Source: Pseudogymnoascus verrucosus | Lineage: Eukaryota | NCBI GenBank assembly: GCA_001662655.1 | Contig: KV460274.1 | DNA length: 64,000 bases | Direction: 5' to 3' (one strand) | In this document: positions 1,817 to 33,611 of the stretch, one piece after another | Position numbering within the stretch: the first letter of the stretch is position 1 | How the letters are laid out: each line of letters opens with the position of its first letter | The notes under the pieces: generated by a model | Databases searched by the model: none | The model's input: the letters and a program-made list of their open reading frames with translations, nothing else | Told to the model about the DNA's origin: nothing | Position numbers and translations under genes: made by a program

Positions 1817-4800
1817 GACCACGCCGTACAAGAAAACAGAGCCGCAGTTAACAAGAGAAACAACCCCTCCACGCCACCTCTCCATCCCCTTATCTCCTCC
1901 CCTTCACAAAATTCATGTCAACAGTTACGAGGTCAAACATCCCTGATAGGTCCTTTTCTCATTCAGTATCCCGTGCGTATTGACAACAAAAGCGAACCAC
2001 CCCCAACTCTTATATCCCATCTTATTCCCGGATTAGCCGCCCCAGCCGCGTCGCGGCGTCCCGAAGCGGTTCGCCGCTGTGCTCGCATGCTATGATGATA
2101 TATTGGCTATGGGGAAAAGGGGTAAAAGGGTTATGGGGTTATGGGTTCATTTTTGGCATACCGCGGTGTCCTGAAGTAGTCGCCGTGGTGGAATAGCTGA
2201 TGGAGATGAAGGGGTTGGGCAGAGCTGTCGGATACATGGATATCACAGCCAACACGGAGAGTGAGTGAGACCGAGGTAAGTTAGAATGAGAAGATGACCG
2301 AGAAAAAAAAACGACCCAACCTAGCTAGCCTCTCTGTAATGCTTGCAGCAAAAAAAAAACACAATAATCCCACTATCCCAAGGGATATCACACGCCGAGC
2401 ATACCGAACCTACCGAGCCCACCTCCCAGACCTACCTTCCCTCCGCGATTCTATTGCTACAGCAAAACTCGGTTGGAAAACAATGACGCATACACCCAAA
2501 ACCACCAAAACCAAAACCACCAACACCGACCGACAGACCGACCCACCACATAACCCGCAGCCCGGACTATCATCACCCCATCCCACCCCCCCACAACCCC
2601 CTGCATCCACGCCGCTTCGCGCGCTTGACCCGCTCCCTACGCGCCGGTATCGGGACAGCTATACCGAGTCGAGTGATCCGGCACGTGAAGTCCGTTCTTT
2701 TTCATCTTCCCGTACTGCCGTATGTACGGGTGTTATTCGGGGTGGGGTTTGATGTTGGTTAGCTAGTATTTCATCCGTAGTGGGTAGACGGGGCTGGGTT
2801 TGATGTATTCATCCGAAGTGGGTTGGGGAAAGATGGGGGGAGAGGGAACGTGGTATGCGGCTCGGATTGCTGATTAATCCCCCCCCGAATTGCAGGATTA
2901 GAAAGCGAGGGAGGATGGGGAGTGGAAATAAGCCTCGGATTGGAAATATCAAGCATCTTCCCCCCAAGACTGAAGTACTGAAGTGATAGTCGCGCGCGAT
3001 GGGTATGGCAAGGGTGATGGCGTCAGGGCGGGACGTGCGACGTACGTGAGATTCGAGCACGGGGATGGGCAGGGCAGGAGGGTTGGTAAGCTGGACGCGC
3101 CCTGTGTACGCCCTGTGGGATACAGTTTGTGGTGCGGTGTGTATTGTGTATTGGTTGTAGGCGGGGGGCATGTGGCAGGTTGGGGGGTTGGGTTGGGATG
3201 ATGGATGGGTGATGGATGGGGGTGATGGATGGGTTGGGATGGGATGATGGATGGGGCTCTGTCTGTATGGGGTAGCTACTACTGCTGCTGGTGATGCTGC
3301 TGCCTTGGGATTGTGGCTTGTGACTCTATTATTCTATGGGTGCCCTTGTTCTATTGTTAGAAGGGAAGAGACTGCGTGCATGACTCCTCGTGCGCCATCT
3401 TGACATCCTCACCGGCCGGTGTGTTTTTGATGCGTGCTTACATACCAAGAAATTCGTACTCGCATCCATTCGCATCGTCTCGCGTACAGTACCACTTCAT
3501 CGGAGATCTCGGCCCTGCCCTAACGACTTCCTGAGTCACCGAGGCTTCAGATCTGGATCTAGAACTGGGTATGCTTACTATTACTAGAACCAGAACTCTG
3601 CACACCTTACCAGAACTGCACACCACACCACTCTATCCCCTCAACTAGACTGCCGAAGACACACCGGGCTGGGACCACCACCCACCACCACCACCTACCA
3701 CATAACCACGCAGAACAGGGGTGCGGCCATGAGGTCGGCGAGCACAGGGGGGATCGGCGGAAAGCTTATTTTTTGTGTTAGGTTAGTGGGGGGGTTGGGG
3801 TGTGTGTGGTAGGTGTGGTAGGTGTGTGATGGGGCGTGGTGGGTGGGTGTGTGTTGGGGTGGTGGTAGGTGCAACGTACGTCTGAGGATTGACATGGGCG
3901 TACGCGTTTTTTTGAATTTTCTCCGTGGGTGGTGGTGTGTGGTGTGGGTTGGGGGATGGGTGTAGGGAAGGGGAAGGGGAAGAAGGGGAAGGGGACGGAG
4001 AGATACGGGGAGGGATGATAAGGGGTGATGGCGTGATGAAGAAATGGCACGTGAATGGCAGCTGACTTGACTGCTAGCGAAGGGGAAAGAGCTGTCAGAG
4101 ATGAGGCTGTGTGAAGGAAGTAGCTGGTGAAGCGAAGGTAGCTGTCAAAAGGGATGTATGTACTCCAAGCTGTCAAATAAAAGCAAGGACGACGCCTCGT
4201 TTCGTATATCGTATGTACGTATACAGTAGGAGCGTATAGGAGCGTATAGCAGCGTACCAAACTCTACTTGTCGTAGATATGATGTACAGTACAAACGGCA
4301 CAAACCACAAAAACGCCAATCACCAATGCCCATGGCTGACCATGGCTGATATCAACTAATCCCCATCACTAATCGAGTGCCCGCCAGGAGTCAATGCCGG
4401 TACCGCACGGGTCATCAATCACCCATCGGCGAGACAGCGACAGGCCATCGACAGGGCCTTCCGCACCAACATCCACCCTCCCCATCAATCCCATCAGTCC
4501 CCCATTCACCCACTAATACAAACCCCATCCTACCATTAATCCACCCGTCCAGTACAATCCCCATTACATCCTCATTACACCCCCATCACACATCACAGCC
4601 CCATTACCACGCCAATCCCATCTCCACCACTCCCCATTCCCATCTATCCCGTCCCTTTTCCTCTAGTATTCTAGGCTGACGACACTCGCTCTATGCCATC
4701 CCATTCCAGCTTCATGGTCTGACTCACCTACTACTTTATTACTGTATTGTTGTATTACTGTATTACTGTATTGACTTCATTACATTACTCTATTTCTGCA

Positions 4801-14572: not shown

Positions 14573-15679
14573 ATGCGTCTTTCTTCGGTTCTCGTCGGGG
14601 TATCTCTCCAAGCTCTCCAAGCAGCAGCTTTACCCGTTGGCAGCTCGGAGTCTCCCTTCACATCTACCTCCCCGGCTCTTGCAAGCTCAACTGCCCCTCC
14701 TGTCTATGACTGGAGCTCAGGTTACGAGTCTCAATTCATCATCCACCCATCTTGCAACTCCACCGAGCGCCATGAGATCACATCTGGCCTCGAGCAAGCT
14801 GTGACCATCGCAAAGCATGCAAAGGAACATAGTATGGACGCACCGTCGTCACGTTATCACTCCTCTGTGATAATGTGACATGACTCCTTCGCACATCAAT
14901 GCTAACCATTCTTTAGTCCTCATCCACCGCAACAGCTCCAAGGTCTTCCAGAAGTACTTCGGACAAGGCCCAACCGGCCCTGTCATCGGATGGTTGGACA
15001 AGATCGCCACCGCGAACCGTGCTGGTGTTATATTCCGCTGCGACGACCCAGATAAGAACTGCGTAACCCAGGATGGTAAGTTGTCGTCTTGTCTTCAATG
15101 CAGACCTCTCTAACACAAACCACAGGCTGGGCAGGACACCACAGAGGATCCAACGCCACTTCGGAGACTGTCATCTGCCCCCTCTCATACACAACCCGTC
15201 GTCCCCTAACAGCCCTCTGCGCTCGTGGCTTTGACATGGCAACGGGTCGCACCAACGACTACTGGGCCGCGGATCTCATGCACCGCCTATACCACGTCCC
15301 GGCTGTCGGCGAAGATGAAATCGGCCACTACGCCGACGGGTACTCTGAGCTTCTGGAACTGGCGGTGGGCGCAAACCGCACCGACGCTGCGAGGAACAGC
15401 GCGTCGCTGTCGTATTTCGCGCTTGAGGCGTATGCGTATGATATCTCGGTTCCGGGCGAGGGATGTGCTGGCAAGGTGGTCGAGGAGGAACATGATCACG
15501 ATCATGATCACGATGCGAGCGCGACTAGCTCTGCTGCTGGTGCTGCTGCCACGTCAGTTAATCCAACGAGGGTTATTCCTGTGTCCACGACTGCTGCTGC
15601 CCCGGTAGCTACAGCAACTGGAGGCGGAGCTGGAAAGGAGTGCCATACTCATGATGATGGAACGGAGCATTGCACGTAG
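14573..15679 (+). CDS. aspf2: secreted zincophore, Asp f2/Pra1 family
   Basis: Signal-peptide-like start; introns at about 14832-14917 and 15075-15126. Motifs IHPSCN, FRCDDPD, GWAGHHRG and MHRLYHVP, a His-rich HDHDHDH tract and C-terminal CHTHDDGTEHC; divergent from zrfC. Confidence 0.92.
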
Positions 15680-16291
15680 ATAATTGTGGGAGGCCGCATC
15701 GTCGTGCTATAATTGCACTTTGTCACGAGCAACGAAAAATTATGGAGTCAACTTTATTTGATAAATGTAGCCTAAAATTAATAGATACACATCCCTTTTG
15801 CAATTGTTCGTGCCCCTTTTACCTCATCCCACAGAGAACAGTAATTTTTAAGTGTGTTGGCTGAGGTTGGGACATCCGGAGCACGGAGAATCCTACCCCG
15901 CGTGAAAATTGTGGCCCAAACGTTTGGAAGCTAAAAGTTGTAGATGTATGACATCATTCCCCCTCCATGGACGACGTCATGTACACCAGTACCACCATTC
16001 ATCAGGGCTGCTGTACTATGGTTAAGGGACGATCCAGACTAATATAGGGGAAAGATGGAGGTGAATCTGGCTGAATGGGGGTGAAGCAAGGCAGGACAGA
16101 CCGTCATTGCCGCATACATGGTCGACGTCAGCGATTCAAGGTCAAGGGGGGCAAGATATATGCCTCCTCCCCTCCCCGGATTTCGAGCCTCTTCTTCTCC
16201 TGGACATACCGACTATTTGATTGCATACCAAACCATTTGACCACTATTGTAAACAAGAAGCATTCAACCAACCCAACCAAGATTAGCAAAC

Positions 16292-17890
16292 ATGGAGACC
16301 ATCCACCGCGCCGCCAGCGCCGCCAGCGAAGCCCTCTTCGGCGAGCATGGAGAGCACGGGCAGACCACCCATGGTAAGACGGGTACTACCACACACACCA
16401 ATGTCGCGGGAGAGTATACCCACGAGCCGCTGTCGGGACGGACAGGGGATACAAAGGCAGGAGAGCCGTATGATGCTGGTAACTTAGGTGGTGCGTTTAA
16501 CCCCTTTCCGACAGTGCGAGATATAAAGGATATATGCTAACTGTTGAATAGAGTTGATCGTTAATTCATTATGATAATAGGAGAAGGAACTAACAACCAC
16601 AGACGAGAGATCTCAGCAGCGCATTGCCGCTTCAAGGGGCGAGCCCACCAACACCACTGGCACAGCTAGAGAATACACTTCCACCTCTGGCACATCAGGA
16701 GGGTATGCCCCCGCTACGTCTACTACCGGCACAGCTGGAGGATATGCTCCAACCACATCTACTACAGGCACAGCTGGCGGATACGCCCCAACCACATCCA
16801 CAACCGGCACAGCTGGTGGATATGCTCCAACCACATCCACTTCCGGCACAGCTGGCGAATATGCCCCCACCACTTCCACCACCAAGTCCTCCACCGGCGA
16901 AGGCGGACTCCGCCGCTCCTCCGACATCTCCCCCCGCTCCGGCCCAGCCGCAGGCACAATCCCCATCCCCTCCAACATTGACCGCCAAGCCGGCGGAGGC
17001 TCTTACTCTTCCGCCCGCGAGACCGCAGCGCGCGCCATGGGCTCAGCTGAGACGCCTGGCAGCGGTGCTGGTGCATATTTCGGCGCTGGTGCTGGTTCTG
17101 GTGCTGCCGCGGGAGGTGCGGGATTGTGGAGTGCGGGGCAGAGGAGGGAGGAGGCTGGTGCTAGAGATGAGAATGGGTATAAGCCTGGCGAGGAGGGGTA
17201 TACTGGTAAGGGGACGGAGCAGGCGGGGAAGGGGGGACAGCAAGCAAGATTTGCGGGTGAGGGTGGTGAGGCGGATGCAGCGGATGTGACGCCTTCCAGG
17301 GCACATGCTGAGGGGAAGAAGGTTAGGGATGTTGGCGAGAGTTCTACGACTGGTCCGACTGGTGCCGGTGCTGGAGCTGGACCTACCGGGGCTGCTCGTG
17401 GTCCTGGTGCTGGACCTATCGGGGCTGCTGGTGCTGTTGGCGCTGGCGCTTCTGGTGCCGGAGCTTCAACAGGTGGCGCCGCGGCCGGGAGCGCACCCGT
17501 CGGCCGTCGTCAGAGCTTGACGGCACACCTCCCCGGCGAGCCTGGCGGCGAGGGCTTGCGTCGCACGAGTAACGCGGGACAGGGAACGGGAGAGCAGTGG
17601 GTTAAGAGCACTGGTTTTAAGGCTGAAGGCGGGGATTTTGACGCCAGTGCTCCTGGTGCCGGAAGGGAGGCTGATCGTGAGTTTTCTCCTGTGTGTGTGA
17701 GTTGGGACAAGGGCTAACAATTGTGGCAGGCCTGTTGATGGAGAAGGGCATCAAGCGCTCCGGTGCAGATGAGAAGAAGGTAACGGGACAGATGGATACG
17801 ACGGCACCCAATGGGGGCCACAACAATGCTTCGGATAACCTAGGTCTGAAGGATAAGCTTAAGAATAAGCTGCATAAGGGCCCGCTGTAA
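16292..17890 (+). CDS. glycine/threonine-rich repeat protein of unknown function
   Basis: Exon 1 is 16292-16487 (or 16490), exon 2 is 16603-17676 and exon 3 is 17730-17890, all in frame. C-terminal block GTGEQWVKSTGFKAEGGDFDASAPGAGREADRLL looks like a conserved ascomycete motif. Confidence 0.75.
16689..16883 (+). repeat. coding 39-nt tandem repeat x5 (GTAGGYAPTTSTT)
   Basis: GGCACA unit starts at 16689, 16728, 16767, 16806 and 16845. Confidence 0.9.
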
Positions 17891-18505: not shown

Positions 18506-18619
18506 GTCTTCATGGCTCAGTTGGTTAGAGCGTTGGTCTCATACTTCAAGTATGACGTAACTGTCAAACAGTCATGTGATTCCATCCAAAGGTCGTGAGT
18601 TCGAACCTCACTGAGGACA
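18506..18619 (+). tRNA. tRNA-Met(CAT), elongator type, with about 40-nt intron (18544-18583)
   Basis: Acceptor stem GTCTTCA/TGAGGAC, D-arm GCTC..GAGC, anticodon loop CTCATA, T-arm GTGAG-TTCGAAC-CTCAC, downstream T-run. Confidence 0.93.
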
Positions 18620-31956: not shown

Positions 31957-33285
31957 TTATATCTTCGCAGCTGGGACTGCCGGGACTGCTGCTGCGGCCT
32001 TTGCCGCGACAGCAGATTGGGCACCGACAGATAGCAAGTTATTGAAACCAGGGGTATTCTGTGGATACCGAGCGTTGAATCCGATGACAGAGCGCACCTT
32101 TTCGAATGTTGCGGTTTGTATTTTCAACTTTTGTGTCGAGACGAGCCACGTTACGCCTTCACTGCAGGGAGGGGTAGTCAAGGACCCAGAGTAACTACAT
32201 CACCACTGGTCAGCATAACTTCGGATGGCAGGGCATGCTTTATTGTCTCGGAGATTCTTTCGCATTAATATCAGGCTCAACCATCTGCTTACCTCTGGAA
32301 TGATCCTGCGAGAAGAGTATTGACGACTTCAGACATGACAAGCGGCTGAGTCTTGACTACCGATCCGGGGCTAGCTACTTCAGCCACCTGAGAAAAGACG
32401 GTTTCCAGAAGGGCGGACGAAGTGCCAGTCGTTGTAGCAAGTGATGATGTAAGAAGCTGAACAATGGCGCTGAGGTGGCTATCAGCTCGTGGTGCGGAAG
32501 CGGCCTCGCCACGGCGGGAGTGTGGATGACGGCCAAGGTCACGCTTCGCCGCCGGCGGCGTTATTACTTGAGCGGTAGCAGCATCGGCAGCGGCGGCGAC
32601 ACCGGTGTCGAGGTCCACGAAGACACCGACGACAGCGATATCCTCTTCTGGTGTCTGGAATACCATATGCATTTCCACTAGGTGATGTCAGCTTTGTTCC
32701 TCTCATTACTATAGTCCATCAGGTGCGGCCATACTGGCAATGCTAGTCCCATTGTCCAGATGCTCACTCGGCAAATGGAAGTGAAACTGCTTGAACTCGT
32801 ACGTCTTTCCACCAACTTCAAGTGATCCACCCTTGCTAACCACCTCGACGGTTGTACCCAAGTTTTCGAACTCAGTTCCCTCTGGCATATCGTTGATTTG
32901 AAGCTTCACATCGGCAGCGGTCAACGTCTTAAAAACGCCATCAACCATGTCTATAGGCGATTGGTTCTTTCCAGTTGCACACAAGACGTTCGCGGAGCCT
33001 CCATCGAGTGCAGCCCAGTTTAATGGCCCCTGGTAAATGAATGTTTAATTAGTAACGGTATTTTGTCTGGAAATATATCCAAACGATGGTAGAGTATAAT
33101 GGAGCAAGGTAAGTTAGTGGTGGATGGGGATATCGTACAATGACACCCGTGTACCCAAAGGTATTAACTTCAATAGGGGCTCCCTCCTCCGCACGGGGGG
33201 ATAGATGGGTTCCGTACGCGCACGACGCCGATGCATGCGTCACAGACGCAGCGATCATCAAGATCCGGGCAATAAATGTTGACAT
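31957..33285 (-). CDS. secreted alpha-class carbonic anhydrase
   Basis: Signal-peptide-like start; GPLNW, NQSPID, QFHFHLPSEH, EMHMV and YSGSLTTPPCSEGVTW; three introns. Confidence 0.93.
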
Positions 33286-33611
33286 TGCAAGACCTGCTTA
33301 CTTCGACAACGATAGATGATATGTAAAGAACGGAAGTATATGTCCAAAAAAATCAAAGTGCTTGAAAACGTGATATAAACGAAAAGTAAACAAGTAGCAG
33401 AGGCAACGATGATAGTATATACTGAATTATTGGAAAAGGAGAAGTCAAGAAGAAATATACTCATTGAGGCGGCCATCCCATCATATTTGTGTGCCATCGC
33501 TGCCGCGGCACTGGCCGGACGACTTTGCGTCTAGCTCATGGAATCTCATAGTCATACGATATTATTGCGTGGCTTTCGGTATCGTCGCCAGCAGATCTAA
33601 AAAAAAACGAG

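What the first reader, a model, noticed from the sequence alone, without database searches (positions are those of the whole stretch)
16488..16602. Candidate nested spliceosomal twin intron with the outer donor split as GTG|AGT ([D3,4]-type stwintron)
Seen: 16491-16551 is a complete 61-nt intron (GTGCGT donor, GCTAAC branch, TAG acceptor). Removing it alone leaves an in-frame stop, but it fuses GTG (16488-16490) to AGT (16552-16554). That creates a perfect GTGAGT donor for a second, 54-nt intron with its own ACTAAC branch and CAG acceptor at 16602. The second excision gives AAC TTA G|AC GAG, which is in frame. One-step removal of 16491-16602 is also in frame but adds one Gly. Known: fungal stwintrons interrupting the outer donor at other positions (e.g. 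[D1,2], [D2,3], [D5,6]) are described; I cannot confirm whether a [D3,4] case has been reported. Inference: ordered two-step splicing, possibly with an isoform differing by one Gly.
Basis: partly seen in the sequence, partly recalled or inferred. Interest (0 to 1): 0.88.

Follow-up and report, generated by a model that had tools for sequence, protein, structure and literature searches.

The report
Candidate [D3,4] nested twin intron
The first intron of a fungal gene of unknown function looks like a small intron sitting inside the start signal of a second one, so it is probably removed in two cuts; transcripts show the predicted end product but not yet the halfway product.

Summary
The anatomy is exactly as described. 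It lies in a three-exon gene (16292-17890, +) for a disordered protein conserved in Ascomycota, in a Pseudogymnoascus-like fungus.

- **RNA evidence:** spliced contigs from 3 of 3 RNA-type runs, each from a different study, remove exactly 16488-16602, giving AACTTAG|ACGAG. None shows the 112-nt one-step (+Gly) form. The 16490/16552 intermediate was not seen, but contigs cannot show rare forms.
- **Motif search:** a published stwintron search model adapted to [D3,4] hits only three places in 125 kb. These are this intron and the homologous introns of two diverged metagenomic relatives, L016 and L005. Their intron sequences are otherwise unalignable.
- **Relatives:** a spliced ORF of an L016-like fungus has the same Gly-less junction.
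- **Against:** U1 pairing does not disfavour direct use of GT 16488. Some relatives have plain introns or +Gly mRNAs.

Verdict: probably a real stwintron (about 0.6). [D3,4] is not among the types listed in the sections I read. This scan's unchecked earlier notes report [D3,4] candidates in ypt1 of other fungi.

The parts
16292..16487 (+). Exon 1 (ATG at 16292; ends ...AAC TTA G, phase 1)
   Evidence: Sequence and translation. RNA contigs end their first piece here. The N-terminal peptide is conserved in many Ascomycota.
16488..16490 (+). GTG: first three bases of the split external donor, and the 5' end of the whole 115-nt intervening sequence
   Evidence: Sequence. The mature junction in 3 of 3 RNA-type runs places the 5' splice site at 16487|16488.
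16491..16551 (+). Candidate internal intron, 61 nt: donor GTGCGT 16491-16496, branch element GCTAAC 16536-16541, acceptor TAG 16549-16551
   Evidence: Sequence. All three elements fit the published fungal motif lists. Read-through ORFs of 6 relatives keep the GGT-GGT head, and 4 have ends compatible with a kept CTAAC. Its separate excision has not been observed.
16552..16602 (+). Rest of the external intron, 51 nt: AGT 16552-16554 completes GTG|AGT; branch element ACTAAC 16589-16594; acceptor CAG 16600-16602
   Evidence: Sequence. The 3' splice site at 16602|16603 is confirmed by RNA contigs. The regenerated donor TAG|GTGAGT has the best predicted U1 pairing, -10.6 kcal/mol.
16603..17676 (+). 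Exon 2 (Thr/Gly/Ala-rich; contains five copies of a 39-nt repeat at 16689-16883)
   Evidence: Translation, RNA contigs, homologues, tandem repeats.
17677..17729 (+). Intron 2, an ordinary 53-nt intron (GTGAGT ... GGCTAAC ... CAG)
   Evidence: Sequence. A joint 17676->17730 that skips 53 nt is seen in X1 and X2. It serves as the control showing that these runs hold spliced RNA.
17730..17890 (+). Exon 3, ending ...KDKLKNKLHKGPL with stop TAA at 17888-17890
   Evidence: Sequence and translation. The C-terminus is conserved in homologues.

Best explanation
The 115-nt interruption 16488-16602 is a donor-disrupted spliceosomal twin intron of type [D3,4].

Proposed mechanism:
1. By intron definition, the spliceosome first pairs the good donor GTGCGT (16491) with the nearest branch site and acceptor (GCTAAC...TAG, ending at 16551). 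It removes a 61-nt internal intron.
2. This joins GTG (16488-16490) to AGT (16552-16554) and creates a perfect donor, TAG|GTGAGT.
3. The new donor is used with ACTAAC...CAG (ending at 16602) to remove a 54-nt external intron. The result is AAC TTA G|AC GAG, read as ...GNL-D-E...

Shown: the anatomy, the final junction, and the recurrence of the layout in homologues.

Inferred: the order of events and the existence of the intermediate.

A share of transcripts may also be spliced directly from GT 16488, which gives the same mRNA. The layout most likely arose from an older plain intron at this position, by duplication of the first three donor bases together with the emergence of an internal 3' splice site.
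For: 1. **Final junction.** In 3 of 3 RNA-type runs from 3 studies, spliced contigs skip exactly 115 nt with GT..AG ends (16488-16602). None skips 112 nt (16491-16602) or 61 nt. Two of these runs (X1, X2) also skip intron 2; X9 had no cover there.
2. **The DNA holds the intron.** A DNA-like contig of the same lineage (X19 record 6) is contiguous over 16150-16956 and so includes the whole 115 nt. It shares SNPs with the mRNA contigs.
3. **Donor quality.** The only one-step route to this product needs donor GTGGTG, which lacks G5 and is not among the 24 hexamers used as genuine fungal donors. GTGCGT and GTGAGT are both in that list (PMC9024468 section 2.1). That route would also have to skip a canonical proximal branch site and acceptor. 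GT 16488 paired with that proximal TAG would give a dead-end product: the frame reads TTA GAG TTG ... TGA and no donor is regenerated (sequence).
4. **Motif search.** The published motif model adapted to [D3,4] hits 3 places in 125,395 bases on both strands. All three are the homologous intron of homologous genes:
   - window 16488-16602, GTG|AGT
   - L016 355-496, GTA|AGC
   - L005 455-578, GTG|AGA
5. **Divergence.** The three introns are diverged to background (alignment z 0.5-2.0), whereas exon 1 gives z 6.5-8.1. The signals have therefore persisted while the sequence around them randomised.
6. **Interior shuffles.** They give the inner 3' site plus a donor-completing triplet in 0.8-2.3% of trials per intron.
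7. **L016-like mRNA.** P0082 is an intron-less full-length ORF, 92% identical to L016 in exon 1 (48 of 52). It reads GNS-D across the junction, as the two-step or upstream product does.
8. **Family junctions.** No Gly follows GN-x in 10 of 10 cDNA-like loci or in 38 of 44 spliced ORFs.
9. **Unit sizes.** Each half (61 and 54 nt) has the size of an ordinary intron of this family: intron 2 is 53 nt, and the plain homologous introns are 60-79 nt.
10. **Relatives' heads.** 6 of 8 short ORFs of Pseudogymnoascus relatives read GNLGG[A/T], so they keep the tandem head. By peptide inference, 10 of 39 read-through ORFs across the family are compatible with a tandem GTN|GT... head.
Against: - **No intermediate.** No contig with the 16490/16552 joint was seen in any of the 4 runs. 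Only assembled contigs were available.
- **No intermediate peptide.** None of 8 short ORFs in the protein collection shows the intermediate's peptide.
- **U1 pairing.** Predicted pairing does not disfavour direct use of GT 16488: -6.6 kcal/mol upstream against -4.8 downstream. The calculation was not register-constrained, and the U1 5' end was recalled from memory.
- **Weak donors may work here.** A diverged homologue in run X19 has a plain 56-nt intron at this boundary, apparently with a donor lacking G5 (GTAATT). There is no RNA for that copy.
- **The window-wide motif count is not significant** under the broad model: 0.25 expected, 1 observed.
- **L005's outer donor** would be GTGAGA. It meets only the lax criterion.
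- **A relative without the upstream GT.** P0058, 76% identical to L005, reads GNV-E-G-E-F, which suggests it lacks the upstream GT.
- **The extra Gly is tolerated.** 6 of 44 spliced relatives carry a Gly at the junction. Two of them are about 90% identical to Gly-less ORFs (P0095/P0104, P0093/P0105). The downstream donor can therefore be joined to the distal acceptor in some fungi.
- **No orthologue DNA.** The intron DNA of named Pseudogymnoascus genomes could not be fetched. Conservation within the genus rests on peptides.
Confidence: 0.62

Rival explanations
1. It is an ordinary 115-nt intron with a tandem GTNGTN donor. The upstream GT (16488, GTGGTG) is used directly with the distal ACTAAC..CAG in one reaction. 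The inner branch site, the TAG and the AGT that follows are not used.
For: - This route gives exactly the observed mRNA.
- Predicted U1 pairing of the upstream register is no worse than that of the downstream one: -6.6 against -4.8 kcal/mol. The exon side, TAG|, matches the consensus.
- Tandem donors in which a weak intronic part is offset by a good exonic match are known from animals and plants (PMC1779574, passages).
- A diverged homologue appears to use a donor lacking G5 (GTAATT) at this same boundary.
- No intermediate has been seen.
Against: - GTGGTG fails three of the six consensus positions (GURWGY). It lacks G5, which the fungal donor lists treat as strict.
- It would have to beat a listed donor 3 nt away and also skip a canonical proximal 3' splice site, in organisms that splice by intron definition.
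- In human tandem donors the downstream site is usually the stronger and more used one.
- This reading does not explain why the inner 3' site plus a donor-completing triplet recurs in three homologous introns that are otherwise diverged to background.
Confidence: 0.28
2. The functional intron is 16491-16602 (GTGCGT to CAG, 112 nt, one step). The protein then carries the extra Gly, and the Gly-less form is minor.
For: - GTGCGT is a listed donor, and the product is in frame.
- +Gly mRNA-type ORFs exist in 6 of 44 spliced relatives of another clade.
Against: - None of the 3 RNA-type runs has a 112-nt joint; all 3 have the 115-nt joint.
- None of the orthologue gene models reads GNLGDE.
- A minor +Gly isoform cannot be excluded, because contigs drop rare variants.
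Confidence: 0.04
3. The nested look is a chance arrangement with no consequence. Any long AT-rich fungal intron may hold a second CTAAC..YAG.
For: - 18% of interior shuffles contain some inner branch site plus YAG.
- The broad motif model gives about one [D]-type hit of some kind per shuffled window.
Against: - The added requirements are met in only about 1% of shuffles: a donor-completing triplet right after the inner acceptor and a GTR right before a listed donor.
Confidence: 0.06

Closest known systems
Donor-disrupted stwintrons of fungi: [D1,2] (lipS and many Xylariales genes), [D2,3] (bioDA), [D4,5] (Lipomyces lipofer reticulon-like gene), [D5,6] (rtnA)
   Same: A canonical small U2 intron sits inside the six-base donor of a second canonical intron, and the complete donor exists only after the first excision. 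Both units have ordinary fungal size. The position is held by a plain intron in other lineages. Basis: PMC5639578 Background, PMC7138796 Introduction and Results section 6, PMC9024468 Introduction, PMC12403724 Introduction.
   Different: The split lies between donor bases 3 and 4, a position not listed among the demonstrated types in those sections. Because the offset is 3 nt, the one-step mis-splice stays in frame (+Gly), whereas in [D1,2] it shifts the frame. The intermediate, which those authors always show by RT-PCR, has not been shown here.
Lipomyces starkeyi [D6,7] stwintron sensu lato, with abutting donors and an alternative one-step splice
   Same: Two donors lie close together at the 5' end, with an internal 3' splice site in the middle. 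The two routes give proteins that differ in frame by a few residues. The authors propose origin by donor duplication ('stwintronisation'). Here the 3-nt head equals the first three bases of the inner donor in all three cases (GTG/GTG, GTA/GTA, GTG/GTG). Basis: PMC7138796.
   Different: [quoted passage not shown] Here the upstream donor is incomplete until the inner unit is removed.
GYNGYN tandem splice donors (Hiller et al. 2006, PMC1779574)
   Same: Two GT dinucleotides 3 nt apart, with products differing by one residue. +Gly and Gly-less ORFs occur among close relatives.
   Different: Tandem donors need no internal 3' splice site and no donor-completing triplet, and they are spliced in one step. 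The study covers animals and plants, not fungi that splice by intron definition (passages).
Recursive splicing at ratchet points in long animal introns (recalled, not looked up here)
   Same: A first excision regenerates a 5' splice site at the new junction, and that site is then used for a second excision.
   Different: Recursive sites lie in very long introns and regenerate the donor from exon-end plus intron bases. Here both units are about 55-60 nt and the donor itself is split.

Membership tests
Stwintron sensu stricto, [D] class | Internal unit is a canonical U2 intron (listed donor, DYTRAY branch element, HAG acceptor 4-20 nt downstream, length at least 42 nt) | tested here: met
   GTGCGT ... 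GCTAAC, then 7 nt, then TAG; 61 nt. It matches the published motif model.
Stwintron sensu stricto, [D] class | The internal intron interrupts the six-base donor of the external intron, so no complete external donor exists before the first excision | tested here: met
   GTG|AGT is split between bases 3 and 4. The uninterrupted hexamer at 16488 is GTGGTG, which is not among the 24 listed donors and lacks G5. Whether GTGGTG can nevertheless function has not been tested.
Stwintron sensu stricto, [D] class | After the first excision the external unit is a canonical U2 intron | tested here: met
   GTGAGT ... ACTAAC, then 5 nt, then CAG; 54 nt.
Stwintron sensu stricto, [D] class | The mature mRNA lacks the whole intervening sequence, with the 5' junction at G1 of the external donor | tested here: met
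   A joint skipping 16488-16602 is present in 3 of 3 RNA-type runs.
Stwintron sensu stricto, [D] class | A splicing intermediate lacking only the internal intron exists (the experimental criterion used in the stwintron papers) | tested here: inconclusive
   No 16490/16552 joint was found in the contigs of 4 runs. Contigs drop rare forms, and no raw reads could be laid. None of 8 short ORFs shows the intermediate's peptide.
Stwintron sensu stricto, [D] class | The same architecture is kept at the same position in orthologues or homologues | tested here: met
   L016 and L005 keep all five motifs at the homologous position, with intron sequences unalignable to the window's. 6 of 8 Pseudogymnoascus read-through ORFs keep the tandem head. 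Other homologues have plain introns.
GYNGYN tandem donor (one-step alternative 5' splice sites) | Two GY dinucleotides 3 nt apart at the exon end | tested here: met
   GTGGTG at 16488-16493.
GYNGYN tandem donor (one-step alternative 5' splice sites) | Both donors are seen joined to the same acceptor in transcripts | tested here: not met
   Only the upstream junction was seen; no run has the downstream one. Rare isoforms cannot be excluded from contigs.

The most novel reading that the evidence does not exclude
This is an old, selectively maintained [D3,4] stwintron, present in Pseudogymnoascus and in Helotiales-like relatives, within a gene family whose ancestral state is a plain intron at the same site. 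It arose by a 3-nt donor duplication. Because the split is exactly one codon wide, failure of the two-step route yields a viable +Gly protein instead of a frameshift. The locus would then act as a natural switch for 3-nt intron sliding. That would explain why relatives about 90% identical to each other differ by exactly one Gly at this junction. It would also fill the missing [D3,4] slot in the series of donor-disrupted stwintrons.
Probability: 0.35. Interest if true: 0.7.

Novelty: new variant of a known kind. Interest (0 to 1): 0.58.

Why it matters
Stwintrons are the clearest natural evidence that filamentous fungi choose splice sites by intron definition, and they serve as models for how introns are gained, lost and shifted. 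The group that defined them states that almost all known cases are [D1,2] and that other types are rare (PMC12403724 Introduction).

A [D3,4] case would add a new split position. Its particular interest is that the one-step mis-splice stays in frame, so this type can tolerate errors. It could drive one-residue protein variation, or a 3-nt shift of an intron position, between close relatives. The family studied here shows both Gly-less and +Gly junctions.

The locus is also directly testable. The two units are short, the end product is known, and a single RT-PCR would decide the question.

Tried and rejected
- **Own genome:** none is held, so donor usage could not be measured in this organism.
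- **First metagenome scan**, using exon 1, found no relative. The second, using exon 2, gave 21 loci, all more distant than the genus. The intron DNA of named Pseudogymnoascus genomes could not be fetched with any tool.
- **Read laying**: no 16490/16552 intermediate joint and no 112-nt joint in the contigs of X1, X9, X2 and X19. Contigs drop rare forms, so this says nothing against either. Differences inside the intron between the window and the X19 DNA contig could not be read, because 60 rows of that table were not shown.
- **Protein collection as a proxy for an assembled intermediate:** none of 8 short ORFs has the peptide expected from the intermediate.
- **Micro-exon model for L016** (two introns around a 39-nt exon): open in frame but rejected. 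Its second intron would be 36 nt, below the 42-nt minimum used for fungal U2 introns. Its first intron would need the unlisted donor GTAGTA.
- **Window-wide enrichment of the motif:** significant with my strict pattern but not with the broad published model. It was not used as an argument on its own.
- **U1 duplex energies** do not separate the two main readings.
- **Host protein:** Pfam and the protein Atlas give no family for it.
They are called mRNA-type only because they run uninterrupted across both intron positions.
- **Literature:** terms containing a comma cannot be searched, so '[D3,4]' could not be looked up as a string. The statement that it is not described rests on three things:
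  - the 12 papers that hold 'stwintron';
  - the sections read in five of them;
  - a phrase search whose 15 listed papers (of 387 matching) included none on stwintrons.
  The first stwintron paper (2013) is not in the library, and no supplements were read.
Full report
**What is there.** The coordinates and motifs of the finding are correct.
- The gene starts at ATG 16292.
- Exon 1 ends ...AAC TTA G at 16487.
- Next come GTG (16488-16490), GTGCGT (16491-16496), GCTAAC (16536-16541), TAG (16549-16551), AGT (16552-16554), ACTAAC (16589-16594) and CAG (16600-16602).
- Exon 2 runs to 17676.
- An ordinary 53-nt intron follows (17677-17729).
- Exon 3 ends with TAA at 17888-17890.

A script confirmed the frame statements:

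| Removed | Result |
|---|---|
| 16488-16602 | ...GNLDERSQQ..., open frame of 476 aa |
| 16491-16602 | ...GNLGDERSQQ... (one extra Gly) |
| 16491-16551 only | ...GNLGELIVNSL followed by stops |

**The host gene.** Its best relatives are hypothetical proteins of Pseudogymnoascus species, 83-88% identical over exon 2. No Pfam family matches. The protein Atlas model of an orthologue is disordered, with pLDDT 0.38. The N-terminal exon (MET...EP.SG..G....EPYD.GN) and a C-terminal block (GTGE.[WY]VKSSGMKADGGDFDA) are conserved in many Ascomycota. Named examples come from Chlorociboria, Stipitochalara, Tricladium and Sarea.

**RNA evidence.** No run holds more than half of the sampled words. Four runs were laid at 82% likeness or more.
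- *The joint.* Each of the two metatranscriptomes (X1, X9) and the RNA-like run X2 has a contig almost identical to the window. In X1 there is 1 other letter in 252 and 5 in 361. These contigs join 16485 to 16601, skipping 115 nt, and the cut fits equally well 2 nt further right with GT..AG ends. The excised piece is therefore 16488-16602 and the mRNA reads AACTTAG|ACGAG.
- *Control.* X1 and X2 also skip intron 2 (17677-17729), so these are spliced RNAs. X9 had no cover there.
- *Forms not seen.* No run shows a 112-nt skip (the +Gly form), a 61-nt skip, or the 16490/16552 joint.
- *The DNA.* X19 behaves as DNA. One contig is contiguous over 16150-16956 with 10 other letters, carries the whole 115 nt, and shares the SNPs of the mRNA contigs. 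The spliced RNAs therefore come from a lineage whose DNA has the complex intron.

The predicted mature junction is confirmed. The intermediate remains unobserved, and contigs cannot show it.

**Why two steps are the better reading.** Only two routes give this mRNA: direct use of GT 16488, or the nested route.
- The hexamer at 16488 is GTGGTG. It fails positions 4-6 of the fungal consensus GURWGY and lacks G5.
- The stwintron group searches with 24 donor hexamers, each above 0.6% of genuine donors and all with G5. GTGCGT and GTGAGT are in that list; GTGGTG is not (PMC9024468 section 2.1).
- The direct route would also have to ignore a listed donor 3 nt downstream.
- It would further have to skip a canonical proximal branch site and acceptor, in fungi that pair the nearest sites by intron definition (PMC7138796 Introduction).
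- If GT 16488 were paired with that proximal TAG, the product would be a dead end with a stop and no new donor (sequence).
- The nested route uses only listed signals and two units of ordinary size, 61 and 54 nt. For comparison, intron 2 is 53 nt and the plain homologous introns are 60-79 nt.

**Comparative evidence from DNA.** Exon 1 was found in 18 of the 21 metagenomic loci.
- *cDNA-like loci.* Ten loci lack the intron and read GN-x-[E/D/A/T].
- *Plain introns.* L009, L013 and L007 have plain introns of 62, 60 and 79 nt at the identical phase-1 position. The cDNA-like L010 and L008 show the L009/L013 splice.
- *Long introns with a tandem head.* L016 and L005 have introns of 142 and 124 nt.
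- *Motif model.* The published model adapted to [D3,4] hits exactly three places in 125,395 bases on both strands:

| Locus | Span | Head and inner donor | Inner 3' site and triplet after it | Distal 3' site |
|---|---|---|---|---|
| Window | 16488-16602 | GTG, GTGCGT | GCTAAC..TAG, then AGT | ACTAAC..CAG |
| L016 | 355-496 | GTA, GTAAGT | GCTAAC..TAG, then AGC | GCTAAC..TAG |
| L005 | 455-578 | GTG, GTGAGT | ACTGAT..CAG, then AGA | GCTAAT..CAG |

- *Frames.* In both loci the two-step product is open through to the conserved C-terminal block, while excision of the inner unit alone runs into a stop.
- *Divergence.* The three introns align no better than shuffles (z 0.5-2.0), whereas exon 1 gives z 6.5-8.1. 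The signals persist in sequence that has otherwise randomised.
- *Shuffles.* Given head and tail, interior shuffles produce an inner 3' site followed by a donor-completing triplet in 1.3% (window), 0.8% (L016) and 2.3% (L005, lax criterion) of 20,000 trials.
- *Head and donor.* In all three loci the 3-nt head equals the first three bases of the inner donor. This fits the donor-duplication route to stwintrons proposed for Lipomyces (PMC7138796). This last point is inference.

**Comparative evidence from proteins.**
- *Genus.* Of 8 short ORFs from relatives in the genus, 6 read GNLGG[A/T]..., so they keep the GGT-GGT head. The ends of 4 of them (IYTNR*, IYTNA*, DIC*, DTH*) are compatible with a kept CTAAC when compared with the window's frames. 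Codons were not seen, so this is inference.
- *Gene models.* Five orthologue gene models (P0005, P0007, P0008, P0013, P0017) read GNL-DE.
- *Family read-through ORFs.* By peptide, 10 of 39 are compatible with a tandem GTN|GT head (GGK, GSK, GGE, GGA, GST, GCE). The rest fit single listed donors.
- *L016-like mRNA.* P0082 is a full-length ORF without either intron, 92% identical to L016 in exon 1 (48 of 52) and 83% overall. It reads GNS-D across the junction, as the L016 two-step or upstream product does.
- *Spliced ORFs.* Of 44, 38 have no Gly after GN-x and 6 do. Two of the +Gly ORFs are 90-91% identical to Gly-less ones (P0095/P0104, P0093/P0105).

**Evidence against, and limits.**
- *Intermediate.* It has not been seen.
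- *U1 pairing.* It does not disfavour the upstream GT: -6.6 kcal/mol against -4.8, and -10.6 for the regenerated donor. The calculation was not register-constrained, and the U1 5' end was recalled from memory.
- *Tandem donors elsewhere.* In human tandem donors the downstream site usually wins and U1 pairing energy predicts usage (PMC1779574 passages). That argues weakly either way here.
- *Plain form in X19.* A diverged homologue has a plain 56-nt intron at this boundary that lacks roughly 16490-16545. Its donor appears to be GTAATT, which lacks G5, so weak donors may work at this site.
- *Other plain relatives.* P0021 also seems to lack the inner unit. P0058, a relative of L005, seems to lack the upstream GT.
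- *Motif statistics.* Under the broad motif model, a [D3,4] hit somewhere in a shuffled window is expected 0.25 times. The pattern alone proves nothing.
- *Missing DNA.* Genomic DNA of named orthologues could not be fetched.

**Comparison with what is known.** In the sections I read, the demonstrated types are [D1,2], [D2,3], [D4,5], [D5,6] and [A2,3], plus the sensu lato [D6,7] and [D7,8]. The 2025 paper says that almost all known cases are [D1,2]. [D3,4] is not listed. I could not search that string directly, the 2013 founding paper is not in the library, and no supplements were read.

This scan's earlier, unchecked notes report [D3,4]-type candidates in the ypt1/Rab1 gene of other fungi. 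I did not test those. If they hold, the present case would be a second gene with this split position.

On membership, five of the six defining features are met by sequence or RNA. The sixth, the intermediate, is inconclusive.

**Verdict.**
- Best reading: a real [D3,4] stwintron, confidence about 0.6.
- Main rival: a one-step tandem-donor intron that gives the same mRNA, about 0.3.
- Novelty: a new variant of a known kind.
- Interest: moderate to high for intron biology, because the case is testable with a single RT-PCR and because its mis-splice stays in frame.

Noticed in passing
window 18506-18619 (+): A tRNA gene 114 nt long, so it probably carries an intron. Rfam RF00005 scores 55.2 bits. 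ARAGORN found nothing in the same stretch.
   Followed up: partly
window 15080-15679 (+): The end of the upstream gene matches PF13933 (HRXXH putative peptidase family, E 2e-53). It is followed by an HDHDHDHD run and a Cys/His-rich tail...CHTHDDGTEHCT. From recall only, this resembles Pra1/Aspf2-type zinc-binding proteins.
   Followed up: partly
window 16689-16883 (+): Five tandem copies of a 39-nt unit encode 13-residue repeats (TTSTTGTAGGYAP-like) in exon 2. The repeat region differs in length between orthologues (alignment).
   Followed up: no
window 17084, 17452-17471: Close relatives in the laid runs carry in-frame insertions in the Gly/Ala-rich part of exon 2: 6 nt behind 17084, and 21 nt behind 17452 or 17471 (table 4).
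   Followed up: no
window 16278-16956, second contigs of runs X19, X1 and X2: Each of these runs also holds a more diverged homologue, 82-88% alike. These are X19 record 7 (DNA, with a plain 56-nt intron), X1 record 2 (spliced, reading GNLDEISQQ) and X2 record 11. They may be a paralogue or a second species in the sample.
   Followed up: partly
proteins P0095/P0104 and P0093/P0105 (relatives of L016): Pairs of full-length, intron-less ORFs 90-91% identical to each other differ by exactly one Gly at the exon 1/exon 2 junction (GNLD.. against GNLGD..). This could be alternative use of tandem donors or a 3-nt intron shift between close taxa.
   Followed up: partly
proteins P0134, P0140, P0157: These ORFs read in frame from exon 1 through what looks like a retained plain intron (GNAGTYF.., GNAGKAF.., GNAGTVP..). 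P0134 and P0140 continue into exon 2.
   Followed up: no
window 33109-33291 (+): The only other hit of the adapted stwintron models in the window is a [D4,5] pattern, with 0.32 expected per shuffled window. By eye it lies in a stretch that looks non-coding, so it is probably chance.
   Followed up: partly
L017 and L019, 297-459 and about 3330-3520: A [D1,2]-pattern hit lies at 297-459 in both loci. In the homologous gene, a 190-nt first intron starts three codons downstream of the usual position with a single GTGAGT donor. It was not analysed for nesting.
   Followed up: no
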